This document shows positions 5,949 through 43,228 of a stretch of 64,000 bases of DNA, one piece after another. The translations under genes were made by a program, and so were the position numbers. The notes below the pieces were generated by a model, which saw only the letters and a program-made list of their open reading frames with translations, was not told the origin of the DNA and made no database searches. Where the stretch lies: the UHGV virus genome UHGV-1351982; one strand, 5' to 3'. Source of the stretch: a virus. Numbering within the stretch: position 1 is the first letter of the stretch; the number at the start of each line of letters is the position of its first letter.

Positions 5949-6180
5949 TTATAACTATTCAGATCCTAATATGGTAGGCAATTTTGAGCAGTCAAATACT
6001 TATCATGTTGCAGTTGCTGAACCTAACCTGAATAATGTAGTTCTTAAGGTAGATCGTGAAGGTAACGTAATCCATTGGGATGAAGAAGCTTTTGTCGAAT
6101 TATGTAGTAAGTCTGATGATCCTACACTTAGAACTATGTTGGCAGTGTTTAACTTAGGTATTATTGCTGGAAGCAGATAA
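5911..6180 (+). CDS. hypothetical protein (GTG start, overlaps dut end)
   Basis: ORF only; ORF-track start is a GTG codon; weak. Confidence 0.3.
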   Translation: MEKAALEAQEVNNYNYSDPNMVGNFEQSNTYHVAVAEPNLNNVVLKVDREGNVIHWDEEAFVELCSKSDDPTLRTMLAVFNLGIIAGSR

Positions 6181-31221: not shown

Positions 31222-31441
31222 CTTTGTAGCTATCTTCATTATCGGGGTGCTTGCGGGAATCTTCGGAACACTCGGGGCTATTAACAAGCATCGTGAATAC
31301 GTTGCGGGAGTATCGCGGGAGCTTTCGGAAAGGGAGCGGAAGTTTGCGGAGAAACGTGCGGAGTTTGAGCGAGAGTGGTCGGATGGATCTCGGGCGTCGC
31401 AGAGGAGGTTTCGGGCTGATTCCGTGAGTTCTCCTAAGTAG
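31214..31441 (+). CDS. small membrane protein
   Basis: 75 aa with N-terminal TM helix FSFVAIFIIGVLAGIFGTLGAI. Confidence 0.4.
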   Translation: MFSFVAIFIIGVLAGIFGTLGAINKHREYVAGVSRELSERERKFAEKRAEFEREWSDGSRASQRRFRADSVSSPK

Positions 31442-31599
31442 CGCTAATTTGACTTTTGCCAAATCTCATAAGATTACACATGAAGGTGTGCCCAGAGGTT
31501 CCCTAGATGAGAATGAGTCTCATTACCGCCCCCTTACTTAGCAAGCTAATAGTCACACCATGTTATCATTACACAGTGTGACTATTTTATTTTTAATTG

Positions 31600-32334
31600 T
31601 TAGGCAACTTTTAATTTATCAATGAATTGTTGCGGTGTGGTACTATATTCCGCGCGTTCTTCCTCGGTCATACCTTCCCAACACATTTTTAAACGTTCGG
31701 CTAGGAATTGATAATCGTTATCATCATCAAGCGATTCATCAATAAAGGTTTCACCGATCAATGTTACGCCGATTGATAGGATATCGTTAACGGCTTGAGC
31801 ATCCAGCGTTTTAAATCCAGCACTTGCCGCCGCTGATAATACACCTTTATGATCATCAATCATTGTAAAATCAGCATTAGGATATAGCTGTTTAAACAGT
31901 TCAAAGTAATAAGATTTATATACAGCGTCTTTACTGTGGTATATTTCGCTAACCTTATTTGCATCAAAGTATTTATGTAATGTATCGCGGGAAAATACGC
32001 GAATATTACTATTTCCGCGCCCTCGCAAGCCTTGTTTGCGTAAATAAAAATAATCGCTTTTAGACATTAGGCGCGCGGTACAAATAATATTTAAAGTATT
32101 TGCATCATTCATACATTGGCGCATATATTCAACCAATGGCAATAAAGAATCCTGCATAATTAAATCATGCTTGCAGGCTTCGCGGGAATATTTATTTAAA
32201 TCTAAATTCCCATTATCATCAAAACAAGGCCCGACACGGTGCATTGAGTTAATGATTGTACCGTCTAAATCCCAAATCATAACGCGGGAAATATGCGGGA
32301 AAGTGCGGGTAATATTCATGTTGACTTGATTCAT
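31600..32334 (-). CDS. dmp: 5'-deoxyribonucleotidase (T5 Dmp-like, HAD-family)
   Basis: 244 aa, same length as T5 Dmp; HAD motif I VMIWDLDGTI near N-terminus. Confidence 0.6.
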   Translation of the reverse strand: MNQVNMNITRTFPHISRVMIWDLDGTIINSMHRVGPCFDDNGNLDLNKYSREACKHDLIMQDSLLPLVEYMRQCMNDANTLNIICTARLMSKSDYFYLRKQGLRGRGNSNIRVFSRDTLHKYFDANKVSEIYHSKDAVYKSYYFELFKQLYPNADFTMIDDHKGVLSAAASAGFKTLDAQAVNDILSIGVTLIGETFIDESLDDDNDYQFLAERLKMCWEGMTEEERAEYSTTPQQFIDKLKVA

Positions 32335-32421
32335 TTGTTACATTCTCCATTTAAGGGATTTAGGTTAATTCAATCTTGCCAGCTAATTATATTGGATTAG
32401 CTGGCAATGTTCAATTAACTA

Positions 32422-32814
32422 TTAATTAGTGAGGCCATACGCTAGCGCGTCACCAATAAAGCTAAGATCTTCACCATGTACGCTAGAACGAATCCCCGCG
32501 CAAGTGTAGACCATCGCGCTAGCTTCTGGATTGCAGACCGGACACGGCTTAACAACCGCAAACGCTAGACCGGATTTAAGCGCATCAATAATAATTGTTT
32601 GTACTGTTAAAGTATCAGCGTAAACACCTTTTGCTTTTGTATGGCTTGCCACTTTGCCGGTATCATAAGCAAAGGTAGTAACCTGCAAAACGTCGTTATA
32701 ATTCAGCAAATCGAAATTAACTTGCCCCGCCTCGACGTGATAACGTTCGCCATTAGAATAAACTAGAACGATGGAAGAAGTAGCGCGGTCAAAAGGAATG
32801 CTTTGGTTTTTCAT
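32422..32814 (-). CDS. hypothetical pre-early protein
   Basis: 130-aa ORF between dmp and A1-like gene. Confidence 0.4.
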   Translation of the reverse strand: MKNQSIPFDRATSSIVLVYSNGERYHVEAGQVNFDLLNYNDVLQVTTFAYDTGKVASHTKAKGVYADTLTVQTIIIDALKSGLAFAVVKPCPVCNPEASAMVYTCAGIRSSVHGEDLSFIGDALAYGLTN

Positions 32815-32846
32815 GTTTATGACTCCAGATTATTTAATTACGGGAT

Positions 32847-33125
32847 TTATTGAAAAAATACATTTAAAGATAAATCAGTTTTACGAAAATATGTTTCGTC
32901 GCCGTCTTTCCTTTCTTGATTAAGGTAATCGCCTGTCATTACCTGAATAGAATCTTTTCCGAAAAAGATCATATTTTCGCCAATATTACTATCCCATACG
33001 GCGTACATTCCCGCGTACATTCCACGGGTAACTAAATAAACGCAACTATCAAAAGACATTTCAGACCATGCAATATCTTCTAAACAATTGCTATCAGGGA
33101 TAGATATATTAATTTTACTAGCCAT
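32847..33125 (-). CDS. hypothetical pre-early protein
   Basis: 92-aa ORF. Confidence 0.4.
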   Translation of the reverse strand: MASKINISIPDSNCLEDIAWSEMSFDSCVYLVTRGMYAGMYAVWDSNIGENMIFFGKDSIQVMTGDYLNQERKDGDETYFRKTDLSLNVFFQ

Positions 33126-33177
33126 TTAATAAACCTTTTATTAATGGCGGTATATTTCAACCGCCGATTAAATTTAA

Positions 33178-34842
33178 TTATGCAAAGAATTTACCGTTCT
33201 TAAAGTCAATCAATGTTCTTTGACCGTTTGCATAGGTAATTAAATGCGTTTGCGTCCAGCTTGACGCGCCCACGTTGTAGCCCATATCAAGGGAACCAGC
33301 AACGCCAGCGGTATAAACGCCGCCGTAAATGCTAGCCGTATGAGTATGACCAGTGTTAAGGCGTCCCAACTTTTTAAACTGCTTAGGATTGCCCCGACTG
33401 CCGTTAATGCCATTGTGACCATGTACGCCGCATTCAATGCCAGCGATTTTAAACGACTGGTCAGTAGTCAGGAAAATAGCGTTAAATTCGCAACCTGCGA
33501 CACTACGCAAGGCGTAATCTAGCACGTTAAAAGTATCATCCTTTTCAGCAATAGCGGCGTATATAGCAGCGTTTAGACGGTGATACAATTCCGCGTTTGC
33601 GGGATCGTCTTTAATGTTAGCGTTACGATCATCTAACCAGCGGGATAAAGCTAAATCATGGTTAGATTCAACAATGATTGTTTGAGAGAAATCACGCTCC
33701 ATTGATTCTAATACGCGTCCAGTGTCGATAAGATCATCTAGAACCTTGTCACGTCCTGCGGCGTACTGTTTAGCAAGGAATACACCACTAGCGCGGTTGT
33801 GATGGTTACGCGATGTAAAATCATGCACATCATGAATAAACTGATATTTAGGCTTGAGAATATCAAGCAAGCTGTTTTCACTAGCCCATGAAGCAACGGC
33901 GCATTCATCATCTAATTTTTCGGCGTGAATATCACCATATTGCAAGCCTAGAACATGATCGGACGTTTCAAAACATCCGGTAGGCATAGCGCAAACATTC
34001 AAATCATAAAACATTCCGCTTTCGTCCATCGTTTCAAGCTGACGAACAAAAAATTCGCCGTCGTCGTCAAATTCTACCAGCAAAGCGCCGAAATTATGTA
34101 AAGCCTCGGCCTTTTGTCCTGCCTTTTGCTGGATATAGTTTTTAAGCGTAGCCGTTCCGGTTGAATACATACGGCGCACTACTTCACCTTTTAACGCTGG
34201 CACACTTTCAGCGGTAATTTTAGCGTGACCAATTGCCAGACCTTCAATATTTAAAGCCGTGGCGGTTTCTGCGAATCCTGAAAGCGGATAGTCTGCCGTT
34301 GGTAACACGTTAATTTCAGCCATGAAAGCAAAACGGCGATTATTTAAAAATACGTTTTTCTCGCAAATATATTTATTAAATGCGGGATCGTATTTAATGC
34401 CTTCGTTACCTTCTCCATTCTGGAAGCCGTTTTTATTGTAAATGAATTTACTAACCAGCAATTCACCGCCGATATATTCAGCGAATTTTTCCAGACTTGC
34501 TAAAAAGTTTTTATGCGGGAAAGTATTATTTTGAATCGACGTTAGAATAAAACGGCGACCGGATTTAACTTCCCACTGTTCCACGGTACTAGAAACAATT
34601 CCCGCCGCTTCGGGGCGATCATCATTTTTAATCGCCTTTTCAGCTTTTGCCGCTTTCGGTTTTGCTGGCTTATTTGCTTCCAACCAATCGCAAATTGCGG
34701 TTGAATGTTTCGTTGTATCGTAAACAGCTTTTGATATATCGTCGCAAACTTCCAGCTTAGTAGCGCGTAAACGTTTACCGTAGAAATTAAAATCAGCGGC
34801 AAGTTTAACGATCTGGGCTTGTTTTTCTGCGGAAATATTCAT
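33178..34842 (-). CDS. A1: A1-like pre-early protein with metallophosphatase motifs
   Basis: 554 aa (T5 A1 about 556 aa); calcineurin-like motifs GDIHAE and GHTHTASIYGG; in pre-early region next to dmp. Confidence 0.6.
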   Translation of the reverse strand: MNISAEKQAQIVKLAADFNFYGKRLRATKLEVCDDISKAVYDTTKHSTAICDWLEANKPAKPKAAKAEKAIKNDDRPEAAGIVSSTVEQWEVKSGRRFILTSIQNNTFPHKNFLASLEKFAEYIGGELLVSKFIYNKNGFQNGEGNEGIKYDPAFNKYICEKNVFLNNRRFAFMAEINVLPTADYPLSGFAETATALNIEGLAIGHAKITAESVPALKGEVVRRMYSTGTATLKNYIQQKAGQKAEALHNFGALLVEFDDDGEFFVRQLETMDESGMFYDLNVCAMPTGCFETSDHVLGLQYGDIHAEKLDDECAVASWASENSLLDILKPKYQFIHDVHDFTSRNHHNRASGVFLAKQYAAGRDKVLDDLIDTGRVLESMERDFSQTIIVESNHDLALSRWLDDRNANIKDDPANAELYHRLNAAIYAAIAEKDDTFNVLDYALRSVAGCEFNAIFLTTDQSFKIAGIECGVHGHNGINGSRGNPKQFKKLGRLNTGHTHTASIYGGVYTAGVAGSLDMGYNVGASSWTQTHLITYANGQRTLIDFKNGKFFA

Positions 34843-34951
34843 AACTAATTCAACTCCTATAAAGGGATAAAGATTAAAGCTGGCAATATTGCCAAATATA
34901 ACGCCTTGCCTGAAGTGAGGACAATTTAAAAGGCGTTATAATTTGCAACAT

Positions 34952-35176
34952 TTAATTAATCGGCATTAAACTAGAACAAAAGCCAAATACAATGCCAATT
35001 GTAAGAAAGATAATTGACATATATTTTTGAATGTTCGCGTTTTTGCGGAAATTATTTGCGGCGTAAACGTTATTAATTCCAATTATTGCCAGAATTGACC
35101 GCGTATAATTCAGAATAAAAGCGGCGGCAATAATAAATAAACCTAAAATAAACGCTTCGCTAGGATAAAAGATCAA
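34952..35176 (-). CDS. small membrane protein
   Basis: 74 aa, two hydrophobic helices. Confidence 0.35.
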   Translation of the reverse strand: MIFYPSEAFILGLFIIAAAFILNYTRSILAIIGINNVYAANNFRKNANIQKYMSIIFLTIGIVFGFCSSLMPIN

Positions 35177-35226
35177 GATTATTCTCCTTTAAGGGATAGC
35201 GGGGAATATTCCCCGCTAATTAAAAT

Positions 35227-35643
35227 TTATTCACCTGCGGCCTGTTTTACTTCCTCCGCTACGCCTAACAATTGCGCTACGGCGTCCAGCGTTTCCAGTT
35301 TTGCACTTTCCAGACTTGCCAAATCGTCGGCATCTTTTACAATGCCGCTATCAATGGCATGTTTAGCAATGACGCGCACATAGTGAGCTTTACGGACAGA
35401 GCTACCGCCGCCAACTTTACGCGGTTTATCGCTTTTCTGATAGGCTTTTGCACTGGCCAATTTAGAACGTACAGAAACAGGGGACGCAGCGCCAACGGCG
35501 GCGGCAATTTCTTTTAAGCCGTCACTATTCGCAAACTCAATCCCGCTTTTAGCAACCATTTCAGAGTACATAGAAACAGCTTTTTCGGTGTTTTCTTCGT
35601 TCCAAGAGAATTTTGCGGTTTTTTCGGTTTTAACGTTAGACAT
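35227..35643 (-). CDS. A2-like pre-early protein (putative DNA-binding)
   Basis: 138 aa immediately upstream of A1-like gene; size and position as T5 A2. Confidence 0.4.
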   Translation of the reverse strand: MSNVKTEKTAKFSWNEENTEKAVSMYSEMVAKSGIEFANSDGLKEIAAAVGAASPVSVRSKLASAKAYQKSDKPRKVGGGSSVRKAHYVRVIAKHAIDSGIVKDADDLASLESAKLETLDAVAQLLGVAEEVKQAAGE

Positions 35644-35743
35644 AATTTAATACTCCATTCAATTATTAATTAAGGGATTATGATTAACTAATGTTAATCC
35701 ATATATTCCCCATATTTCAGGGGAATATAAAAGTAACACTAAT

Positions 35744-35995
35744 TTATGCTATAGCTTGCCATTTATCATCTTTCTGAATGATCTTTACAACGTCGCCAGA
35801 TTTAACGCGAACATTATAAATAGGCTTGCTGTTGTTACTGCGTTCCGTTTCCGCATAGACCGCTTCAATCTTATCAAAGGGATCAAGCGCCGCACCTTTG
35901 ATACGTTCGGCTTTTCCGGTTAATTCATCAGTTTTAGTTACAAAAGGAATGAAAACAGATTGACCTACTTTCGGCGCGGTAATAACGTTTTGCAT
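35744..35995 (-). CDS. hypothetical protein
   Basis: 83-aa ORF. Confidence 0.4.
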   Translation of the reverse strand: MQNVITAPKVGQSVFIPFVTKTDELTGKAERIKGAALDPFDKIEAVYAETERSNNSKPIYNVRVKSGDVVKIIQKDDKWQAIA

Positions 35996-36159
35996 TTTTA
36001 ATACTCCGGTTTATTGGGGATTATTCCACAATAGCGCCTCGATACTTTGAAACGCTATTAGATTATAATCCGCTAGGAGTTAGCCTAAACATTACCATTA
36101 TCCAAATTTTTAAAGAGCAGTTACTACGGGGAACATCTTAAAACCTATCGGCTAGCGTG

Positions 36160-36378
36160 TCAAGCGTTTTTTAAACTTTTTTCGATTTGATGTGAGTTAT
36201 ATAAATCAATCATTATATTACGCCACACCATTTCCAGACCTTGCTGCTTACCTTTCTTGTATTGCTTGAATCTGTATTTTACAGATCGTTGCGCTACTGT
36301 CAACAAATTTTTTGTTCTGCTATCCAGTGGGCTAGCAGGTTTTGCACTAATCACTAAAGCGTTTTTTGATTTGATCAT
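36160..36378 (-). CDS. hypothetical basic protein
   Basis: 72-aa basic ORF. Confidence 0.35.
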   Translation of the reverse strand: MIKSKNALVISAKPASPLDSRTKNLLTVAQRSVKYRFKQYKKGKQQGLEMVWRNIMIDLYNSHQIEKSLKNA

Positions 36379-36760
36379 TATCGTCGATTCCTTATAATGT
36401 ATAAGTTTACCGCCGATAGGCTTTAAGATGTTCCCTAGTTTTTAAAGAGCATGGCGGTAAACTTCCCCGCCGTGTAATCTTGCGTTTCGTTTCCGTCCCG
36501 CCGTCCTACGAGATAAATAATAGGGGATTCCCGAAAATGGCGCAACCTTATTTTTGTAAAGAAACGTAAAGAAAACCACTACCCGCACCACGGCAAGCGG
36601 CGCACTAAGTTTAATGAAACAGGCGCGCGAATAACACTAAAACAACCACTTTAGCAAGTAATTTTTTCATTTATATCTGCTCTAGGGTACTTGACAAAAT
36701 CTAAAATCCTCGTGGTGAGGTTTTCTCGGTGTACCCCTTATGATTGCCTATCTTTTCCTT

Positions 36761-36798
36761 TGATGCGCTTAGAATCGCTTACAGAGCGTTTTAGACCC
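36761..36798. repeat. direct repeat copy 1 (TGATGCGCTTAGAATCGCTTACAGAGCGTTTTAGACCC)
   Basis: About 85 percent identical to 40503-40538 by eye. Confidence 0.6.
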
Positions 36799-37010
36799 TG
36801 TTAATAACTTATACAAAAAGCAAAAATGAAATTTAATGAGTTATCCACTTGATTTTTCAAAAAAGTATTTTCTGCTGTTATTTTTCATTGACAAATAAGT
36901 TTAGACGTGCATTGATTGGTTAGCAGACTAACAATCGCTAGGATAATAATCACGCTGGTGGATTGTAACAGCCGAAACAGTTAGCAGACTATTAATACTC
37001 TAAAAACCTA

Positions 37011-37041
37011 TTAGCCAACTAACTATTTCATATTATATAAT
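37011..37041 (+). promoter_or_regulatory. candidate promoter (-10 TATAAT with ATAAATT leader) about 430 nt upstream of the plus-strand cluster
   Basis: TATAATATACTTATAAATT matches the conserved early promoter/leader motif; -35 weak. Confidence 0.35.
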
Positions 37042-37099
37042 ATACTTATAAATTAAAGAGAAATAATAACTATAAGAAACTATCGGCTAAGTGAGAACC

Positions 37100-37222
37100 A
37101 CTATCATTTAGGTTATTCACAAAGTTATCCACAGCACAAAATAACTTGACGCAATAGGCGACGTTTTGGCGACTTATCCACAGACTTATGTACAGGTTAT
37201 CCTACTGTATAAATATACAGGG
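37100..37222. repeat. left copy of about 120-bp imperfect inverted repeat carrying two DnaA boxes (TTATTCACA 37113-37121, TTATCCACA 37125-37133), a third DnaA box (37174-37182) and a LexA-like box (37203-37222)
   Basis: Reverse complement of 40567-40690 aligns by eye; includes an identical 16-mer TTATCCACAGACTTAT. Confidence 0.6.
37203..37222. promoter_or_regulatory. LexA (SOS) box-like palindrome TACTGTATAAATATACAGGG
   Basis: CTGT-N8-ACAG core with AT-rich spacer, close to the E. coli consensus TACTGTATATATATACAGTA. Confidence 0.5.
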
Positions 37223-37469
37223 TAGAATGGTAGCAGTAACAACCGCAATCAAATTTAAGCGGCCTAGAACGCGCTACACGGCGTTTTCTCACTGCTACCC
37301 TTATTATAATAAAGCCTTGTGTACGCTTACAGAGAGCTAGAAATAGAAAACGCGCGGTTATCATAAAAACAGGCAGTAGGCAAGGAATAAAAAACCTTTT
37401 CTTTTTTCTTGCCCATAGTGAACAAATATCTATATCATTCACTCACCGATTAACGAGGGAGGCAAAGAA

Positions 37470-38489
37470 ATGTCTACTGTAAGAATTGCAGTGCCAGCAA
37501 ACGCAACTATTGTTAAAGGTAGTTTGCGCAACCTGCTAGATGGTAGTAGTGCGGCAAGTATTCAGCACACCGCTACTATTGTAGAAAAGATTCACGATGA
37601 AATTTTAGACAATAATGATACTCATTATTCAGTTGATGATTTCACGCTATTACTAGACCAGACAAGGGCGCTAGTAATTTTCAACCGTGATTATCACATT
37701 TTCCGTAATAGTCGGGGAACTGATATTGATTTTATCATTGTTGGTTATAGTGAGTCTCATAGTGGTTACATTGCGCGATTATATAACGTGCAAGAAAAGG
37801 AGCAGGTAACAGCAACAAAAGTAAATAATATCCGGCTGGATAGTGTCGGATCGTTATTAAATAGTATCTGGCGTGAATTATCCTCAAGCTATAAAGGTGC
37901 GGATAGTGACGCAATCGAAACAACTGGCGTATTGTGTTTTGAAAAGTCAACGGGTAACATGTTGATCCCTAGCGATTATTTAGGGTATGGGAATGAATCA
38001 AACGTTGCAAACGCTGGATTTACACTTTTCCCGCTTGACAATGTAACAAAACAGGCTGTAAACTCTCAAACTTCAAGCGCAATTGCGCAAACTACTGAAA
38101 ATAAAGGAAATAACACTATGTCTAAAGTAACCGCTATCGTTGCCGCTAATAAATCCGCCGCCGCTACCGCTGCAAAACTGGAAGCGGGTAAAGTAGCACT
38201 AACTCAGCTTACAAAAGTAGCGGCTAAAGCCCTGCCTTCTGGTATGGCTGGCATGTTCGCTAAACAGTATTTAGATACTCCGGTCGGGCGCGTTGTTGTT
38301 GCCAACTTGTTAAATCTGGCAATCGAACAATACGCACCGAATAACCAGAAAGCGCGAATTGTTGCTAAAGCCGCAATGGATGCCGCAATGCTGGAAGTGG
38401 TACAGAGTTTCAATATTTCTGAAATGATCGACAAGGCAATCGAGGGAATCAACATTGATGCTTTGACTGCTAATATTTCAGAAGAGTAA
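37470..38489 (+). CDS. hypothetical protein (339 aa), first gene of plus-strand pre-early cluster
   Basis: Strong RBS GAGGGAGG before ATG; own terminator hairpin after stop; no recognisable domain. Confidence 0.5.
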   Translation: MSTVRIAVPANATIVKGSLRNLLDGSSAASIQHTATIVEKIHDEILDNNDTHYSVDDFTLLLDQTRALVIFNRDYHIFRNSRGTDIDFIIVGYSESHSGYIARLYNVQEKEQVTATKVNNIRLDSVGSLLNSIWRELSSSYKGADSDAIETTGVLCFEKSTGNMLIPSDYLGYGNESNVANAGFTLFPLDNVTKQAVNSQTSSAIAQTTENKGNNTMSKVTAIVAANKSAAATAAKLEAGKVALTQLTKVAAKALPSGMAGMFAKQYLDTPVGRVVVANLLNLAIEQYAPNNQKARIVAKAAMDAAMLEVVQSFNISEMIDKAIEGINIDALTANISEE

Positions 38490-38498
38490 TAATAACAA

Positions 38499-38525
38499 GC
38501 GGGAATTAATTTTCCCGTTTTCTTC
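38499..38525 (+). terminator. terminator-like hairpin after the 339-aa gene
   Basis: CGGGA-ATTAATTT-TCCCG followed by TTTTCTT. Confidence 0.45.
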
Positions 38526-38547
38526 CCTTTTAGTTAGGAGACTAATT

Positions 38548-39039
38548 ATGTTTGGTAACAGAAATTATGGCAACCCTATTGAAGCACGATCCCTTAATCA
38601 TGACGCAATTGTATTCACTCATGCGTCTACCGGTTATTGTGGATCAGATGGGAATGATTATCATTTCGTTCCCGCTGGTGACGATATTGATGATCTATGT
38701 AATGAGGCAGGTTATGAAAATGCTTGCTCTTATGGTCTAGAAGTTATTGAAGTAGACGACGGCGAATATGAGGATAATGATAATATTGAATGCTCCGCTT
38801 ATCATTATCAGTTAAGTGAATCAGGTTGTTATATTGGCGGCGGCGATCCTATTAATTCCATCACTGAAATAATTATTGAAAATGGTGGCGTTTCGCTGAA
38901 TGGTAACAAGGCGTTACTATATGCAAACCGATTAAAGCAACTTGTATATATTCCTGATGGGAAAGAATGGGAAGAATACAACGTTCTAATTGCAGAATTG
39001 AAAAGCTGTTTCGGCGTGGAAGTGGTAGAAATAGTCTAA
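38548..39039 (+). CDS. strongly acidic hypothetical protein (163 aa)
   Basis: RBS TTAGGAGA; Asp/Glu make up over one fifth of residues with very few Lys/Arg, several Cys. Confidence 0.5.
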   Translation: MFGNRNYGNPIEARSLNHDAIVFTHASTGYCGSDGNDYHFVPAGDDIDDLCNEAGYENACSYGLEVIEVDDGEYEDNDNIECSAYHYQLSESGCYIGGGDPINSITEIIIENGGVSLNGNKALLYANRLKQLVYIPDGKEWEEYNVLIAELKSCFGVEVVEIV

Positions 39040-39054
39040 TGTAAAGTTTTGTAA

Positions 39055-39081
39055 AGGTCGCCCTAATCGGCGGCCTTTTTT
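39055..39081 (+). terminator. rho-independent terminator (GGTCGCC-CTAATC-GGCGGCC then TTTTTT)
   Basis: GC stem plus T6 immediately after the stop at 39039. Confidence 0.6.
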
Positions 39082-39146
39082 GTTATAATGCCTTTACACC
39101 GAAACGGTGGATTGAAAATTTTCCCTGATTTCTAGGAGGCGTTAAA

Positions 39147-39377
39147 ATGGTTGCTTTCTCTTCTTCTGACTCCCTTTTCACTGGTAAAGGTTGGGTATCT
39201 AATCGCTGGATCATTGATCAAATGGTTTCGGAATTTGGGATTGGTAAAACTTATGTTACCATTCAGGCGCTTTATGATAATGACAAGATTGACCAGCAAA
39301 CCGCCGGATTTTTGCTGGATACGCTGAAAGCGGAACATTGCACTAAAAAGCAAGCGGCAAAAATTGTTTTAATGTAA
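39147..39377 (+). CDS. hypothetical protein (76 aa)
   Basis: RBS CTAGGAGG; followed by hairpin GGGGCG-TTACTTTC-GCCCC. Confidence 0.45.
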   Translation: MVAFSSSDSLFTGKGWVSNRWIIDQMVSEFGIGKTYVTIQALYDNDKIDQQTAGFLLDTLKAEHCTKKQAAKIVLM

Positions 39378-39424
39378 TTAATAACGGGGCGTTACTTTCG
39401 CCCCTCATTCCCTTACTAGGAGTT

Positions 39425-39643
39425 ATGCAAATGTTAAAGAATGTTTCCCTTGCCCGTTCTAAAGGTTTTAAGCTGGTGGATGTTAACACCTTCGAGCGTC
39501 CAGATTGTAAAATCGAATATGTAGCACGCAACAAAAACCCTTTCCGTGTTACAGAAAAGAAATTTGACAAGCGCGGCAATTTGATAGCCGAAACGGTTAA
39601 ACACTTTGCTACTTTTTACGCTGCTTTTCGTGGGGTATTATGA
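39425..39643 (+). CDS. hypothetical basic protein (72 aa)
   Basis: RBS CTAGGAG; possible 33-aa hydrophobic ORF (39642-39743) overlapping its stop. Confidence 0.45.
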   Translation: MQMLKNVSLARSKGFKLVDVNTFERPDCKIEYVARNKNPFRVTEKKFDKRGNLIAETVKHFATFYAAFRGVL

Positions 39644-39752
39644 GATCCTTATATATTGCTCTAGCGTTTGCTACTGTTGGCGTTGTATGCTCATTCGCCG
39701 CATTTGTTTTAAAAATGTACATGATATTTTCCCAGCTTTAGGAGGTTGACAA

Positions 39753-40100
39753 ATGGTAATTTATGAGGGCAATCGTTTTGTTGCTAATTGCCGTCCGGCA
39801 TTGTTAGCAAACTATTTAAATCAGCTTTCACCAGTTTATAAAGGCGTGGTTAATATCTATGAAGGCAAAGCACATTATAAAATTTCTGCCGTTGTCGCTC
39901 GCGAGCTTGCCTTTCAGTTTCTTACTTTTAACTCATGCGATATTCAGGTTATGGGTGAGCCATTAGTCGCAGAAAATGAAAATGAATTTATTGACATTTT
40001 CCGCAAAGTATGTACAGAGCGCCTGATTATGAAGGGCGCGTATATTCAATCAACCGCTGAAAGTATTGAAACAGCGTTTCGAAAAATTGTAAATGAATAG
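39753..40100 (+). CDS. hypothetical protein (115 aa)
   Basis: RBS TTAGGAGG 8 nt before ATG. Confidence 0.45.
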   Translation: MVIYEGNRFVANCRPALLANYLNQLSPVYKGVVNIYEGKAHYKISAVVARELAFQFLTFNSCDIQVMGEPLVAENENEFIDIFRKVCTERLIMKGAYIQSTAESIETAFRKIVNE

Positions 40101-40226
40101 CTGGTGGCGAAAAACACAAAGCCATAAATCTAATAATACCGCTGGGAAACATTCCCAGCGTTTACGATTTGGTAATGGCTGCGTAATGATATTGATAATC
40201 ATCCTCATTCTAGGAGCGATGGCGTT

Positions 40227-40421
40227 ATGAGTGATAAAATTGTTGTAACTAAAACTACTGTTACCGTTGATACTTTCTTTGTGCCTGATACGCTGGAAAA
40301 TCGGCAATTAGTCGAGCGTGGCGATTATGACAAAGTGATATATGATGGGGATGGATACTATCAACATTTGGTAGACTCCTACGGCGAAAGCGAAAAGATC
40401 ACACATCGACTACCAGACTAA
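40227..40421 (+). CDS. hypothetical acidic protein (64 aa)
   Basis: RBS CTAGGAGC; terminator follows. Confidence 0.4.
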   Translation: MSDKIVVTKTTVTVDTFFVPDTLENRQLVERGDYDKVIYDGDGYYQHLVDSYGESEKITHRLPD

Positions 40422-40427
40422 TAATAA

Positions 40428-40457
40428 CGGGGCGCAACTATCGGCCCCGTCTTTTCT
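40428..40457 (+). terminator. rho-independent terminator (CGGGGCG-CAACTATC-GGCCCCG then TCTTTTCT)
   Basis: Strong GC hairpin and T-rich tail after last gene of plus-strand cluster. Confidence 0.6.
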
Positions 40458-40502
40458 GGCCTTCCTCAAATTTCCCCTTATTAAAATACCTCTTCCAAAA
40501 AT

Positions 40503-40538
40503 AAACGCGTTAGAATGCGTTACAGAGCGTTTTAGAGC
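40503..40538. repeat. direct repeat copy 2 (AAACGCGTTAGAATGCGTTACAGAGCGTTTTAGAGC)
   Basis: Matches 36761-36798. Confidence 0.6.
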
Positions 40539-40566
40539 TATATTAGAGTTATTCACTACGCAGGAA

Positions 40567-40586
40567 TACTGTATAAATATACAGTA
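40567..40586. promoter_or_regulatory. near-consensus LexA (SOS) box TACTGTATAAATATACAGTA
   Basis: Perfect palindrome TACTGTAT/ATACAGTA, 19 of 20 matches to the E. coli LexA consensus. Confidence 0.55.
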
Positions 40587-40690
40587 GAATAATCTGTTGA
40601 TAAGTCTGTGGATAACGCCTCAAAATCGCTAGGATTTTGTCAAGTCAAATCGTGCTGTTAATAAACCTGTGGATAACTTAAATAACAGTG
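40567..40690. repeat. right (inverted) copy of the about 120-bp repeat with LexA box (40567-40586) and two DnaA boxes TGTGGATAA (40607-40615, 40668-40676)
   Basis: Reverse complement aligns with 37100-37222. Confidence 0.6.
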
Positions 40691-40708
40691 TTTCTCACTT
40701 CGCTTTGT

Positions 40709-40852
40709 AAATGCGAGTCATTCTCATTATCATTCGCGTTTCCCTTCCTAAATGCAAATCATTCTCATTCGTATTCCGGTAGTCAAATGATAACTATTCT
40801 CATTCGCATTCAACTTCTCAAATGCGAATCAATCTCATTATCATTCGCATTT
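40709..40852. repeat. four tandem copies of a palindromic unit (AATGCGA..TTCTCATT..CATTCGC)
   Basis: Units at about 40709, 40750, 40785 and 40820; last unit has perfect 10-bp arms AAATGCGAAT/ATTCGCATTT. Confidence 0.6.
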
Positions 40853-40889
40853 CGGCAGGCAGGGCATTTTCTATTTGCCCTGCGCTTTT

Positions 40890-41489
40890 GTGCAAATCCG
40901 ACATTTGCCCCCACGGATTACGTGCCAGCGTGTATGTGCGAATCCGACAATTTTTGGTAGTGTGCAAATCCGACCCGAAATATTTTTATAGTGTGCGAAT
41001 CCGACAATGAATTTCCCTAAAAACTCCAGCAATCTCGAACTGCGATCGAATCCTGTGGGATATGCGCAAATCCGACATGAGTTTGCTAGGAGACAGATTT
41101 ATGGTTTCAGGAATATTTTTGTGACTTCGATGAGAGGGTGTGTAATTGTGTGAGTTTGGGGAGAAGTGCGAATCCGATGAGGTTTTGGGAGGAACTATGA
41201 GAGGAGCAGCGGTGTTGGTGCTTTAGCACCGATTTGCTGCGTTTTTGGGGATAATGTGAGATGTTTTGGGATAATTGGGCGTGGGGTGAGATAAAGTGAA
41301 ATTTTATTAGTTAAATGGGGCAAAATCGCTTGACAAGTGAAAATTCCTGTGTCCCTAAAAACTCAGGCAATCATGGGCCTTCGGCCCGAAATAATGCTGC
41401 TATTTTCAGGAGATTATGTGCTCATGAAAACTTAGGCAATTGTGCAAATCCGACCAGTTTTTAAACTTATATCAGTGTGCAAATCCGAT
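40890..41489. repeat. iteron-like array: 8 direct copies of GTGC(A/G)AATCCGA(C/T), all in one orientation, irregular spacing
   Basis: Copies at 40890, 40936, 40962, 40993, 41064 (variant GCGCAAATCCGAC), 41166, 41442, 41477. Confidence 0.7.
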
Positions 41490-42025
41490 AGCAATTTCCA
41501 GAAATGTGTTTTCAAAAAATGTTGTCTAGAAATAACCGCCCTCCCCATAACCGCCCTGTATTAACCGCCTATTGCTGGAGTTTCTAGGAACATGAAAACC
41601 GCCTGAGTTAATGGGAGTTTTCCTAGAAACTTAGGAGTCTAGAAGAAAGTGTTGTGCCATCCTAGCAGATGAGCGGCAACAGGTGTATCATCTTGAACGT
41701 TAATTTATCTATTTAACAGTATTAGTTTTTATATAAGTATAAGATCCCCAAGGGTTCTCATATAGAGCTTTGCCCCCGCCAGAAGGTCTCGTGATGTTTC
41801 TAGTAATCTTTATTAAATTACTTGTTGACTTGTCCTGTCGCTCCGTAACCTACGCTACAAGTCAGTAATTTAAGATTCCTGAACCACCACACCTTCTGTG
41901 TGGCAACTCTAAATGGTTAATTCTATTAACTCATAGAGTTATGATAACATACATTTAGCTATCTGTCAACGAGAGTTTGTATCTGAGTCTCGGTACAGGT
42001 ATTGTGCACCGAGACATGCAGGATC

Positions 42026-42913
42026 TTACAGTAACTCTTGGTATGCTTTTTGGTACGCCTCAGTGTTAGTAGGTGTATCTTTTGCAATAGTTATTAATTC
42101 ATCTGTGATCTGAATATTCGTATTATAACGTGAGTGGAACTCGTCAGGAATTTCTAGATACCTATTGATGAATGCTGCAGCAAGCGGTGAAGCTATACCC
42201 ATTTCTAGAACCCATCCAACTTGTTTCTCAAACTTCAAATAAGGAGATTCTGTTTGAATAGTAGAAGTTTTGGTTTCCTTGATTTCTTTTATTGGTAGGA
42301 TTGGATTTTCATAACGTGCTTCTTCAGGGATAGCAGATCTACGTTCTTTATAAATATAAGTCTCTAGATCCGATGCTTTAGACCCTGAATATACTGCAAA
42401 GACACTTGCTTTACCTTGTGATGCTCTAATTGGTAAATAGCAATTTGGATAACTTCTCAATGCATCGTGGAAAGGGCTTCCAGAATATTGATAACGCTCT
42501 CCATATAAATCATCAATGTTCATTCGTTCATCTTCGAAGATATGGAATGCACTAAATGAAGGTAGTGTGAAATATTCTGTTTCTAGCGCGCGAATTAAGA
42601 ATCGATGAGCATATGCACTAATCTTAATAACTGTGTAGGGTTTTTCTCCTTCTTTGAGAGCGTTACCCTTAGATGTAACTTGATAACGTTTTCCGAAGAA
42701 CTCTACTAAACGCTTCTCGTTTAAAGAGAGTGTAGAGTATAAACGTCCGTTCAGTCCTAGCAAGGTATCAAACATAAATGCTAGCTTATCTTTTTCTTCT
42801 TGGGTTAGTTCAGGAAATGGTAGGATCTTAGCATTTGGAATGTTATTTGTTTCCTTTGCCTTTCCTTTGCCAGCATTTTGTCTCAGTTTGTCTTTAAAAT
42901 TATAAGTACCCAT
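42026..42913 (-). CDS. hypothetical early protein (295 aa)
   Basis: ORF with coding-like composition; last gene of minus-strand early block. Confidence 0.5.
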   Translation of the reverse strand: MGTYNFKDKLRQNAGKGKAKETNNIPNAKILPFPELTQEEKDKLAFMFDTLLGLNGRLYSTLSLNEKRLVEFFGKRYQVTSKGNALKEGEKPYTVIKISAYAHRFLIRALETEYFTLPSFSAFHIFEDERMNIDDLYGERYQYSGSPFHDALRSYPNCYLPIRASQGKASVFAVYSGSKASDLETYIYKERRSAIPEEARYENPILPIKEIKETKTSTIQTESPYLKFEKQVGWVLEMGIASPLAAAFINRYLEIPDEFHSRYNTNIQITDELITIAKDTPTNTEAYQKAYQELL

Positions 42914-42982
42914 TGTATTTCCTTTTTAAGGTCAGATGACCTGCTTTTTATTTTAAAGCCTCCGTAGAGGCTTTTGTGTTAG

Positions 42983-43228
42983 CTACTTTTTGCGTGGTAT
43001 TACATCCACACATACTAGACCTAGTTGTTTAACAAGATCTGCTAAATAACAATGATGCAAGATTGCTTCTTTTGGTATTTTACTTACTAACTCAATAATA
43101 GTGCGTAGATCTTGTTGGTTAGCAAAGAAAACATGTCTGATTTCTTCTTTTAAATAAATACCAAACGTATCTGTATTAATAAGTTTTATACTAAAGTCTT
43201 CATGTTCATAAGAGAGCAGTGTATCCAT
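42983..43228 (-). CDS. hypothetical protein (81 aa)
   Basis: ORF, start overlaps upstream gene stop. Confidence 0.4.
   Translation of the reverse strand: MDTLLSYEHEDFSIKLINTDTFGIYLKEEIRHVFFANQQDLRTIIELVSKIPKEAILHHCYLADLVKQLGLVCVDVIPRKK

What the first reader, a model, noticed from the sequence alone, without database searches (positions are those of the whole stretch)
37203..40586. Two near-consensus LexA (SOS) boxes in a virulent phage
TACTGTATAAATATACAGGG (37203-37222) and TACTGTATAAATATACAGTA (40567-40586) both have the CTGT-N8-ACAG core and AT-rich spacer of the E. coli LexA operator; the second matches the consensus at 19 of 20 positions. They lie symmetrically at the inner edges of the inverted repeats around the plus-strand cluster. 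LexA control would couple the cluster, or local DNA transactions, to host DNA damage, which is unexpected in a lytic T5-like phage.
Basis: seen in the sequence. Interest (0 to 1): 0.55.

Follow-up and report, generated by a model that had tools for sequence, protein, structure and literature searches.

The report
LexA boxes in T5 injection-stop repeats
Two near-perfect binding sites for the host DNA-damage repressor LexA sit next to paired DnaA boxes in the inverted repeats of the first-injected DNA of a T5-like lytic phage; the same arrangement recurs across the whole phage family, which points to an unreported host factor at the poorly understood T5 injection-stop region.

Summary
TACTGTATAAATATACAGGG (37203-37222) and TACTGTATAAATATACAGTA (40567-40586) score 22.5 and 25.6 bits on a LexA matrix. 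That equals or exceeds the known E. coli operators in the matrix. The next best hit in 64 kb scores 14.7 bits, and about 4e-6 sites of 25.6 bits are expected by chance.

The window is a T5-like phage (Epseptimavirus-like). The sites lie in the terminal-repeat (first-step-transfer) DNA, at the inner ends of the known IRC-spacer-IRD and IRD'-spacer-IRC' repeats. The distal site is T5's annotated "palindrome D" in the injection stop signal. No paper I could search calls it a LexA site.

Both boxes occur in every informative close relative. LexA-like boxes, usually 7-9 nt from a DnaA-box pair, also occur in Klebsiella, Pantoea, Pectobacterium, Proteus, Aeromonas and Vibrio relatives. The exact 20-mer sits upstream of imuA, umuD-like, dnaE2, recA and lexA genes in many bacteria.

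The sites do not overlap the characterised promoter of the flanked gene cluster, so classical SOS control of that cluster is not supported. The best reading is a conserved DnaA-DnaA-LexA host-protein landing module. Its function is unproven; I favour an SOS-sensitive roadblock or injection-stop component.

The parts
37203..37222 (.). Proximal LexA-like box TACTGTATAAATATACAGGG, at the inner end of the left repeat arm
   Evidence: 22.5 bits, heterology index 3.65. It is homologous to T5 6135-6154, at the end of 'inverted repeat D'.
40567..40586 (.). Distal LexA-like box TACTGTATAAATATACAGTA. It corresponds to T5 'palindrome D' (AY587007 9330-9349).
   Evidence: 25.6 bits, heterology index 0.68. 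T5 annotation and sequence.
37086..37220 (+). Left arm of the inverted repeat (T5 IRC-spacer-IRD)
   Evidence: repeat I1. Davison preprint 10.1101/866236.
40569..40703 (-). Right arm of the inverted repeat (T5 IRD'-spacer-IRC'), inside the region annotated as the injection stop signal in T5
   Evidence: iss annotated at 9140-10149 in AY543070.
37174..37194 (+). Inner DnaA-box pair TTATCCACA-gac-TTATGTACA, 8 nt from the proximal LexA box
37113..37133 (+). Outer DnaA-box pair TTATTCACA-aag-TTATCCACA of the left arm
40595..40615 (-). Inner DnaA-box pair (TGTTGATAA-gtc-TGTGGATAA on the + strand), 8 nt from the distal LexA box
40656..40676 (-). Outer DnaA-box pair (TGTTAATAA-acc-TGTGGATAA on the + strand) of the right arm
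37146..37151 (+). TTGACG, a -35-like hexamer in the spacer of the left arm. It reads toward the DnaA pair and the LexA box, and no convincing -10 element follows it.
40638..40643 (-). TTGACA, the mirror -35-like hexamer in the spacer of the right arm. Vibrio and Aeromonas relatives carry a sigma54-type TGGCAC-N5-TTGC at this position.
37264..37287 (+). CTAGAACGCGCTACACGGCGTTTT, a copy of the TTAGAA...GCGTTTTAGAG motif on the cluster side of the proximal box
40510..40536 (+). TTAGAATGCGTTACAGAGCGTTTTAGA, a copy of the same motif on the cluster side of the distal box. A third copy lies at 36769-36795.
   Evidence: (repeat D10)
37409..37438 (+). Promoter-like TTGCCC-18-TATCAT upstream of the first cluster gene. 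It is homologous to the annotated T5 promoter T5P4.
37470..40421 (+). Rightward pre-early gene cluster of 6 ORFs. The 339-aa ORF is DUF7566 and matches the T5 gene 011 region. The 115-aa ORF is 87.5% identical to T5 AY587007 ORF016 (AY543070 T5.015 by position), described elsewhere as an Ung-dependent nickase.
40428..40453 (+). Terminator-like hairpin CGGGGCGCAACTATCGGCCCCG followed by TCTTTT, at the end of the cluster (T5 'palindrome C')

Best explanation
The two palindromes are genuine high-affinity binding sites for the host SOS repressor LexA, and they have been kept by selection. Each is the inner element of a composite module: a -35-like or sigma54-like element, about 25 nt, two DnaA boxes 3 nt apart, 7-9 nt, then the LexA box. 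The module is conserved across the T5 family (Demerecviridae).

The distal module is the best conserved. It lies 0.2-0.8 kb inside the inner end of the terminal repeat. In T5 it lies about 290 nt before the calculated shear point of first-step-transfer DNA.

Inferred mechanism: this DNA enters an uninduced cell, and LexA dimers and DnaA then occupy both modules. That builds a host-protein complex at each end of the rightward pre-early cluster and at the last-entering part of the injected DNA. I think it most likely acts as an SOS-sensitive roadblock or anchor. It would insulate the injection-stop region from transcription, or take part in holding the DNA. It would not act as a classical operator of the cluster's main promoter.

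LexA self-cleavage would dissolve the LexA part of the complex. That cleavage could follow earlier DNA damage or the A1-driven breakdown of host DNA.

Shown here: site quality, non-randomness, conservation, coupling to DnaA boxes, and position. Inferred: LexA occupancy and every functional consequence.
For: Site quality: 25.6 and 22.5 bits against 11.9-23.6 bits for the E. coli operators in the matrix. The sites are unique in the window and in 50 kb of T5.

Use as an SOS operator: the exact 20-mer occurs in at least 120 bacterial stretches, where roughly 1 is expected from my own estimate. Nearly all are Beta- or Gammaproteobacteria. It lies within 250 nt upstream of ImuA (21 loci), S24 peptidase/UmuD-like (21), PA0069 radical SAM (18), error-prone DnaE2 (16), RecA (7) and LexA-like (4) genes.

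Conservation in close relatives: both boxes are present in 39 of 40 loci found through A2, without reference to the box. The fortieth lacks the upstream DNA. Both are also present in T5.

Conservation in distant relatives: boxes of 17-25.6 bits occur in Sugarland, Pantoea AAS21, Proteus Stubb, Aeromonas TS3 and three Vibrio phages, whose A1 proteins are 31-73% identical to the window's. More IMG/VR contigs show the same.

Coupling to DnaA boxes: I anchored on DnaA-box pairs rather than on the LexA matrix. Fifteen of 31 pairs in 19 distant loci are followed at 7-9 nt by a 20-mer of at least 18.9 bits, where P is about 2e-7 per position. The strict composite pattern hits only contigs already retrieved through A1 or A2 among 2.9 million viral contigs.

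Substitution pattern: variants of the distal box keep CTG and CAG and change only positions that E. coli operators tolerate, such as CTGG, CCAG, TGTAC and CACAG. The per-position conservation profile tracks the LexA profile (Spearman 0.94; this is partly circular).

Position: the distal box lies 211-793 nt inside the terminal-repeat boundary in Stubb, Sugarland, Stitch and T5. T5 annotates this region as the injection stop signal.
Against: There is no experimental evidence of LexA binding or of any SOS effect on T5-like phages. I found none in the searchable literature.

Neither box overlaps a convincing promoter, and LexA is not known to act architecturally or at a distance.

The proximal box has lost a CTG or CAG in several lineages: CCTTGT and TCTTGT in IMG/VR loci and ACGG in Stitch. 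It is probably removed in the viable T5 hegG-to-017 deletion mutant (that the arm is included is my inference from gene order).

A second family-wide context upstream of A2 carries a conserved degenerate half-site, GCATGT, scoring 13.7-16.7 bits. That is odd for a site selected only for LexA.

Positions 6-9 of the half-site are more conserved in the phage boxes than in E. coli operators (information 1.35-1.5 against 0.6-0.9 bits). Something beyond LexA may constrain them.

My LexA matrix was built from sites recalled from memory, and boxes were mostly selected with it.

It is unclear how a cytoplasmic DNA-binding protein could halt DNA entry.
Confidence: 0.5

Rival explanations
1. The boxes are classical SOS operators. 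LexA represses weak promoters that lie inside the repeat arms. Transcription of the rightward cluster from the left arm, and of an antisense or non-coding RNA from the right arm, would then become SOS-inducible.
For: Promoter-like hexamers overlap the boxes. The scan found TTATCA-16-TATATT on the minus strand at 40603..40576. By eye, the mirror TTATGT-16-TATAAA lies on the plus strand at 37186-37213. A -35-like TTGAC(A/G) lies about 50 nt upstream of each box and reads toward it, so the DnaA and LexA sites would fall at about +10 to +75 of a transcript. In Proteus and Pectobacterium-like relatives, and in one IMG/VR contig (L060), a LexA-like box directly abuts a TTGACA -35 upstream of the A2 operon. 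The cluster encodes toxic, DNA-directed functions (gene 011 and the gene 015 nickase), which would plausibly benefit from SOS coupling.
Against: The overlapping hexamers are really DnaA boxes and match the -35 consensus poorly (3 of 6). The spacer TTGAC(A/G) elements lack a conserved -10. The annotated, conserved promoter of the cluster lies about 185 nt downstream of the proximal box. The distal and best conserved box has no gene for which it could be an operator. Promoter-like hits in the region are not significantly enriched: 21 found against 14.7 +/- 3.4 expected.
Confidence: 0.2
2. The palindrome is the operator of a phage protein. The most plausible candidate is the dimeric pre-early DNA-binding protein A2, alone or with A1. 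It would mediate shut-off of pre-early transcription or release of the DNA for second-step transfer. The resemblance to a LexA box would be coincidence, or deliberate mimicry in which the phage protein competes with LexA.
For: A2 is conserved wherever the boxes are found. It is annotated as a DNA-binding protein required with A1 for second-step transfer. Boxes lie close to the A2 operon's upstream region in distant relatives. The spacer of the phage boxes is more conserved than LexA requires. A conserved asymmetric variant, GCATGT...ACAGTA, exists.
Against: A 19-of-20 match to the LexA consensus is expected about 4e-6 times per 64 kb by chance. The tolerated variants are those seen in LexA operators. 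The A2 model (pLDDT 83) is all-helical with no beta strands, and no PDB match reaches E below 1. There is therefore no sign of a LexA-like winged helix. The A2-like sequences of Proteus and Vibrio relatives are only about 38-43% identical to the window's A2, while the box stays near the LexA consensus.
Confidence: 0.12
3. The palindrome is a structural or recombination element, and any LexA binding is incidental. It could be the end of the homology used to invert the cluster, or a hairpin or cruciform in the repeat-rich injection-stop region.
For: The boxes mark the inner ends of the repeat arms. The segment between the arms is inverted in Klebsiella phage Sugarland compared with T5, the window and Pantoea AAS21. 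The central AAA/TTT of the box flips between close relatives without intermediates. As single-stranded DNA the distal palindrome folds to -4.9 kcal/mol, z = -4.1.
Against: A purely structural palindrome need not match any particular sequence. This one keeps the LexA consensus in Vibrio, Aeromonas and Proteus phages whose flanks have diverged. The hairpin is short, AT-rich and weak. No recombinase domain was found among the neighbouring proteins. Homologous recombination between 135-nt arms explains the inversion without a special site.
Confidence: 0.08

Closest known systems
Chromosomal SOS boxes of Gamma- and Betaproteobacteria (LexA operators of recA, lexA, umuDC, sulA, imuA-imuB-dnaE2)
   Same: The 20-bp palindrome is the same, with a CTGT-N8-ACAG core and an AT-rich spacer. 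The exact distal 20-mer is found directly upstream of such genes in many genomes. Scores equal or exceed those of E. coli operators.
   Different: These sites are in a virulent phage. They do not overlap a recognisable promoter of a downstream gene. They are fused at a fixed 7-9 nt to a pair of DnaA boxes and duplicated as an inverted repeat around a gene cluster.
T5 'palindrome D', inverted repeats D and D', and the IRC-spacer-IRD and IRD'-spacer-IRC' elements of the injection stop signal region (GenBank annotations AY587007 and AY543070; Davison preprint 10.1101/866236)
   Same: It is the same element by position and sequence. The distal box equals T5 9330-9349 and the proximal box equals T5 6135-6154. 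The eight DnaA boxes, in pairs 3 nt apart, match Davison's description.
   Different: The element has been described only as a palindrome and inverted repeat with DnaA boxes. The Davison text contains no mention of LexA or SOS. Neither do the later T5 papers I checked. Searches of the library pairing LexA with T5-family names found no paper making the link. I could not read the 1987, 2005 and 2015 papers.
LexA operators that control lysis-lysogeny switches of temperate phages and other mobile elements (coliphage 186 tum, GIL01 P1 with gp7, CTXphi, LexA-controlled antirepressors). This comparison rests on my own knowledge and on PMC4551915 as listed.
   Same: A phage genome carries binding sites for host LexA, so phage behaviour could be tied to the host SOS state.
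   Different: Those sites overlap promoters of switch genes in temperate elements. This phage is strictly lytic, no switch gene is present, and the sites flank a pre-early cluster and the injection-stop region.
DnaA-box arrays (oriC-like clusters, and DnaA-box complexes that block transcribing RNA polymerase). This comparison rests on my own knowledge.
   Same: Paired consensus DnaA boxes lie next to an AT-rich segment. Five of the window's nine strict DnaA boxes lie in the two 135-nt arms.
   Different: No replication function is known here. Davison notes that the T5 origins map near the genome centre. The AT-rich partner is a LexA consensus rather than 13-mer unwinding repeats.

Membership tests
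LexA operator (SOS box), Gammaproteobacteria type | A 20-bp palindrome with a CTGT-N8-ACAG core and an AT-rich spacer | tested here: met
   Both sites contain CTGTATAAATATACAG.
LexA operator (SOS box), Gammaproteobacteria type | A matrix score or heterology index within the range of experimentally verified operators, and clearly above the genomic background | tested here: met
   Scores are 25.6 and 22.5 bits (heterology index 0.68 and 3.65) against 11.9-23.6 bits for the 30 training operators. The background maximum is 14.7 bits, and 4e-6 such sites are expected per 64 kb. The matrix was built from sites recalled from memory.
LexA operator (SOS box), Gammaproteobacteria type | The same sequence is used upstream of known SOS genes | tested here: met
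   The exact 20-mer lies no more than 250 nt upstream of ImuA, UmuD-like, DnaE2, RecA, LexA-like and PA0069 genes in 87 of 120 bacterial loci.
LexA operator (SOS box), Gammaproteobacteria type | The site overlaps or abuts the promoter (-35, -10 or +1) of the regulated gene | tested here: not met
   The proximal box is about 185 nt upstream of the -35 of the conserved cluster promoter. The distal box is about 115 nt downstream of the cluster terminator. Only weak hexamers overlap the boxes. The result is inconclusive for unannotated weak promoters.
LexA operator (SOS box), Gammaproteobacteria type | Physical binding by LexA, and derepression on RecA-mediated LexA cleavage | not testable with these tools
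   This needs EMSA or footprinting, ChIP, and lexA(Def) and lexA(Ind-) hosts.
T5 injection-stop-region repeats (IRD' and palindrome D; IRD) | Homology in position and sequence to the annotated T5 elements inside the terminal repeat | tested here: met
   T5 annotation and sequence. The window region aligns with terminal repeats of Stitch and other relatives. The arm alignment is highly conserved.
T5 injection-stop-region repeats (IRD' and palindrome D; IRD) | A cis-acting role in stopping first-step DNA transfer | not testable with these tools
   Papers from 2023 and 2026 state that functional studies of these sites are lacking and that second-step transfer remains poorly understood.
Temperate-phage LexA-controlled switch | A LexA box over the promoter of an antirepressor or lytic regulator in a temperate element | tested here: not met
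   The phage belongs to the T5 family. Neighbouring proteins matched only domains of unknown function, and no promoter overlaps the boxes.
Site-specific inversion system | Inverted crossover sites plus an adjacent recombinase gene | tested here: not met
   The inverted repeats are present, and the segment is inverted in Sugarland. No recombinase domain was found in the flanked or neighbouring ORFs.
oriC-like replication origin | A DnaA-box cluster plus an unwinding element and replication initiation | tested here: inconclusive
   The DnaA-box pairs are present. An unwinding element was not tested. Davison notes that the T5 origins map elsewhere.

The most novel reading that the evidence does not exclude
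LexA, together with DnaA, is a host factor of the T5 injection stop that has been sought for decades. LexA and DnaA would load onto the distal module as it emerges into the cytoplasm and help arrest or hold the DNA at about 8%. RecA activation caused by A1-driven breakdown of host DNA would then destroy LexA. With A2, this would license second-step transfer. The SOS signal the phage itself provokes would serve as the timer of its two-step injection.
Probability: 0.1. Interest if true: 0.9.

Novelty: new variant of a known kind. Interest (0 to 1): 0.62.

Why it matters
How T5 stops DNA injection at about 8% and later resumes has been unresolved since the 1960s. Papers from 2023 and 2026 still describe the stop region only as repeats, palindromes and DnaA boxes with no functional data. 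One of its most conserved palindromes turns out to be a consensus LexA operator, fixed 7-9 nt from a DnaA-box pair across the whole family. That names a second concrete host factor. It also makes the question testable with existing tools: lexA(Def), lexA3(Ind-) and recA hosts, purified LexA, and the T5 genome engineering already published. It would also be an unusual case of a strictly lytic phage keeping LexA sites. This suggests the SOS state of the host is read during the first minutes of infection.

Tried and rejected
Chance was rejected by the exact score distribution and by simulations.

A scatter of hits across the genome was rejected. Nothing scores above 14.7 bits elsewhere in the window, and nothing above 13.2 bits in T5 11401-61400.

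Structured RNA was rejected. There are no Rfam matches in 35000-43000.

I tested whether A2 is a LexA-like winged-helix protein. There was no match in the local Pfam or NCBIfam libraries. The AlphaFold2 model is all-helical, and Foldseek against the PDB gave nothing with E below 1. This leaves A2 binding possible but unsupported.

Phylogenetic footprinting within the close T5/Epseptimavirus group was uninformative. The whole repeat arm is 80-100% conserved, so the box does not stand out. The informative comparison was with distant genera.

The Fur-box resemblance of the repeats at 40709-40846 is weak. The best matches are 14 of 19, and better matches occur elsewhere in the window.

Literature searches for LexA together with T5, Tequintavirus, Demerecviridae or Epseptimavirus found no paper making the link. 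One search and one in-paper look-up failed on a term shorter than three characters, and surfaced none in the 15 papers it listed. Davison's 2015 review could not be retrieved. A search of a T5 RNA-polymerase paper for pre-early promoter data found nothing.

I considered scanning A1-carrying Rhizobium and Caulobacter phages for an alphaproteobacterial LexA motif. I dropped it because the short motif would not be significant. The non-Demerecviridae A1 contigs simply lack a strong gamma-type box; their best scores are 16.8-19.7 bits.

Full report
**Observation.** TACTGTATAAATATACAGGG lies at 37203-37222 and TACTGTATAAATATACAGTA at 40567-40586. CTGT-N8-ACAG occurs only at these two places in the window, both times as CTGTATAAATATACAG. 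That loose pattern is not significant by itself: 20 of 100 shuffles gave two or more matches.

I built a symmetrised LexA weight matrix from 30 E. coli operators recalled from memory. On it the sites score 25.6 and 22.5 bits, with heterology indices of 0.68 and 3.65. The training operators score 11.9-23.6 bits. The next best hit in the 64-kb window scores 14.7 bits. The exact score distribution gives 6.6e-11 per position for 25.6 bits, or 4e-6 expected per 64 kb. Markov-1 simulations of 64 kb give a maximum of 13.2 +/- 2.2 bits. In T5 itself, positions 11401-61400 hold nothing above 13.2 bits. The two boxes are copies within one inverted repeat, so they count as one event plus its duplication.

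**What the region is.** The region is 95% identical to E. coli phage NG_S8 and to many Salmonella T5-like phages. In Salmonella phage Stitch the homologous stretch lies inside the 9,982-bp terminal repeat. The window carries A1 (33178-34842, minus strand) and A2 (35227-35643, minus strand). After a non-coding stretch comes a rightward cluster of six ORFs, 37470-40421.

The boxes sit at the inner ends of a 135-nt inverted repeat, 37086-37220 and 40569-40703. This is the IRC-spacer-IRD / IRD'-spacer-IRC' pair described for T5. In GenBank record AY587007 the distal box is annotated as "palindrome D" (9330-9349). The proximal box ends "inverted repeat D" at 6135-6154, where it reads CACTGTATAAATATACAGGG. 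Record AY543070 annotates 9140-10149 as the injection stop signal.

Each arm holds two pairs of DnaA boxes with 3-nt gaps. The inner pair lies exactly 8 nt from the LexA box. Five of the window's nine strict DnaA boxes are in these arms.

**Is it known?** Davison's 2020 preprint analyses these repeats in 25 phages and proposes that DnaA binding stops injection. Its text contains no occurrence of "LexA" or "SOS". Three later T5 papers I checked individually do not mention LexA either. Searches pairing LexA with bacteriophage T5, Tequintavirus, Demerecviridae, Epseptimavirus or T5-like phage found no paper that makes the link. Papers from 2023 and 2026 say that functional studies of these sites are lacking and that second-step transfer is poorly understood. 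I could not read the 1987 and 2005 sequence papers or Davison's 2015 review, so an older mention cannot be excluded.

By my own estimate about one match is expected by chance in 596 Gb. Nearly all hits are Beta- or Gammaproteobacteria, the clades that use this LexA motif.

In 117 of the 120 loci an ORF of at least 70 aa starts within 250 nt and reads away from the site. I clustered these ORFs and identified representative members:

| Downstream gene family | Loci |
|---|---|
| ImuA | 21 |
| S24 peptidase (UmuD-like) | 21 |
| PA0069-family radical SAM | 18 |
| Error-prone DNA polymerase DnaE2 | 16 |
| RecA | 7 |
| LexA-like | 4 |

This exact sequence therefore serves as an SOS operator in nature. 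In vitro binding by enterobacterial LexA is very likely, though untested.

**Conservation.** I retrieved relatives through the A2 protein, without reference to the box. That gave 40 loci from 30 IMG/VR contigs. All 39 with enough upstream DNA carry both boxes.

- The distal box is nearly always 25.6 bits. Its variants (TACTGG..., ...TGTAC..., ...ACACAG, CACTGT...) keep CTG and CAG and change only positions that E. coli operators also vary.
- The proximal box is usually CCCTGTATATTTATACAGTA (22.5 bits). It has lost a CTG or CAG in several lineages: CCTTGT, TCTTGT, and ACGG in Stitch.

Within this close group the whole arm is 80-100% conserved, so footprinting is uninformative. The informative comparison is with distant genera, whose A1 proteins are 31-73% identical to the window's. 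These are Klebsiella Sugarland, Pantoea AAS21, Proteus Stubb, Aeromonas TS3, and Vibrio PG07, Thalassa and 70E36-1. All carry two or three LexA-like boxes scoring 13.7-25.6 bits near A2 and A1, and each carries at least one of 19 bits or more, although the flanking sequence has diverged. A further scan seeded with an A1 alignment shows the same in most T5-family-sized contigs (about 86-128 kb). The short or high-GC A1-carrying contigs from other phage types have no comparably strong box; their best scores are 16.8-19.7 bits.

**The composite module.** In distant relatives the recurring layout has four parts in order:

1. A promoter-like element. This is TGGCAC-N5-TTGC in the Vibrio and Aeromonas phages and TTGAC(A/G) in enteric ones.
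2. About 25 nt of spacer.
3. Two DnaA boxes.
4. After 7-9 nt, the LexA box.

To avoid circularity I anchored on relaxed DnaA-box pairs in 19 distant loci. Fifteen of 31 pairs are followed at 7-9 nt by a 20-mer of at least 18.9 bits, where the per-position probability is about 2e-7. A strict version of the composite pattern hits only 19 stretches among 2.9 million viral contigs. All 19 are on contigs already retrieved through A1 or A2.

The distal module always lies close to the inner boundary of the terminal repeat: 211 nt in Stubb, 248 nt in Sugarland, and about 790 nt in Stitch and T5. In T5 it lies about 290 nt left of the calculated shear point at 9618 and about 315 nt left of the 7.9% nick.

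The per-position conservation of all distinct phage boxes parallels the E. coli LexA profile (Spearman 0.94). Positions 6-9 are more conserved than in host operators. This test is partly circular, because boxes were picked with the matrix.

**Why classical control of the cluster is not supported.** The conserved promoter of the first cluster gene is TTGCCC-18-TATCAT at 37409-37438. It is homologous to T5's annotated T5P4. A 2026 preprint lists a promoter upstream of gene 011 among three experimentally characterised pre-early promoters. Its -35 element starts about 185 nt downstream of the proximal box. The distal box lies about 115 nt beyond the cluster's terminator hairpin at 40428-40453. The only promoter-like hexamers that overlap the boxes are the DnaA boxes themselves. 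These are TTATCA-16-TATATT on the minus strand and, by eye, TTATGT-16-TATAAA on the plus strand. They are weak, and promoter-like hits are not enriched in the region.

A viable T5 mutant lacking hegG to gene 017 makes small plaques. By gene order the deletion should remove the proximal arm, so that copy appears dispensable. This fits its decay in some lineages and Davison's remark that some relatives have only the distal arm.

**Most likely mechanism.** The following is shown: consensus LexA sites, conserved family-wide, stereospecifically coupled to DnaA-box pairs, bracketing the rightward pre-early cluster, with the better conserved copy at the last-entering edge of the first-step DNA.

The following is inferred. 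On entry into an uninduced cell, LexA dimers and DnaA occupy the modules and build a host-protein complex. I favour a role as an SOS-sensitive roadblock or anchor. It would insulate the stop region from rightward read-through out of the cluster and from leftward transcription of the early genes beyond it. Alternatively it would take part in holding the DNA at the stop. LexA self-cleavage would remove the LexA component, whether triggered by earlier damage or by A1-driven breakdown of host DNA. In the Vibrio and Aeromonas phages the upstream element is a sigma54-type site. Such sites bind holoenzyme stably without firing (my own knowledge). That fits an array of stably bound host proteins better than a regulated gene, but this is inference. 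My confidence is about 0.5 for selected LexA sites in a DnaA-LexA module that is not a classical operator. It is much lower for any specific downstream effect.

**Rivals.**

1. Classical SOS operator of weak promoters in the arms (0.2). This would gain support from a transcription start within about 80 nt of a box that responds to the lexA genotype of the host.
2. Operator of a phage protein such as A2 (0.12). A2 is conserved with the boxes and is DNA-binding. However, its model is all-helical with no detectable LexA-like fold, and coincidence with the LexA consensus is very improbable.
3. Structural or recombination palindrome with incidental LexA binding (0.08). The cluster between the arms is inverted in Sugarland. 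Homologous recombination between the arms explains this without needing this particular sequence.

**Verdict.** It extends to the whole T5 family and to T5 itself, where the site has been annotated for 20 years as a plain palindrome of the injection stop signal. LexA boxes are a known kind of element. What appears unreported is their presence in a strictly lytic phage, fused to DnaA boxes, at the injection-stop region. This makes an old question directly testable. Function remains unproven.

Noticed in passing
L050 (Klebsiella phage Sugarland) 5189-9141, compared with window 37203-40586: The whole gene cluster between the two DnaA/LexA repeat arms is inverted in Sugarland compared with T5, the window and Pantoea AAS21. 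Homologues of the 339-aa, 163-aa and 115-aa ORFs read in the same direction as A2 and in reversed order, while the arms keep their orientation. The arms have therefore mediated an inversion during evolution.
   Followed up: partly
L046, L047, L048, L049, L053, L056, L060, L064, L066 (Vibrio and Aeromonas T5-like phages), within about 10 kb upstream of A1: Sigma54-type promoter consensus TGGCA[CT]-N5-TTGC[AT] occurs 1-5 times per locus, where about 0.03 is expected per 20 kb. Copies often lie just upstream of the DnaA pair and LexA box, or about 430 nt upstream of A2. None occur in T5, the window, Sugarland, Pantoea AAS21 or Proteus Stubb. Pre-early regions of aquatic members of the family may use or bind sigma54 holoenzyme.
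   Followed up: partly
window 36769-36795, 37264-37287, 40510-40536 (all + strand): A second conserved non-coding motif, TTAGAAnCGCTTACAGAGCGTTTTAGAG, lies beside the LexA-like boxes. It recurs next to them in the Vibrio, Proteus-like, Pantoea, Sugarland and Pectobacterium-like relatives I examined. Its function is unknown.
   Followed up: partly
L048 5438, L049 3532, L053 8587, L064 8618, L072 5588, L082 6244: Upstream of the A2 operon, several distant relatives carry a LexA-like box with a conserved degenerate half, GCATGTATA(A/T)3TATACAGT (CCATGT in L064). It scores 13.7-16.7 bits. It is followed by TTGACA or TTGGCAT-N5-TTGC and, in most, by a conserved TGCTACRCGYGYGCGC. The conserved asymmetry is not explained by simple LexA binding.
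   Followed up: no
window 37212-37214 and 40576-40578; loci L002-L041: The central AAA/TTT of the palindrome flips orientation between close relatives, so the box is replaced by its own reverse complement. I saw no intermediate, and never the perfect ATATATAT consensus. This suggests inversion or gene conversion between the arms rather than point mutation.
   Followed up: no
window 40709-40846: Four copies of a roughly 27-nt palindromic repeat, AAATGCGAATCATTCTCATTATCATTC (T5 direct repeat C and palindromes E-I). They resemble a Fur box at 14 of 19 positions in three places, but better matches occur elsewhere in the window, so the resemblance is weak.
   Followed up: partly
window 40890-41489: Seven copies of GTGCRAATCCGAY (T5 direct repeat D). 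The first follows CCCTGCGCTTTT, the homologue of the T5 7.9% nick site. By offset to Stitch, the terminal repeat would span about 31369-41350. The window would then come from an assembly in which the terminal repeat is collapsed or the genome is permuted.
   Followed up: no
window 35227-35643 (-): A2, essential for second-step transfer, has no match in the local Pfam or NCBIfam libraries; the database lists it under PF26822. It is predicted at pLDDT 83 to be an eight-helix protein with no solved structural relative (best Foldseek E about 1, with weak Myb- or HTH-like matches to the N-terminal part).
   Followed up: yes
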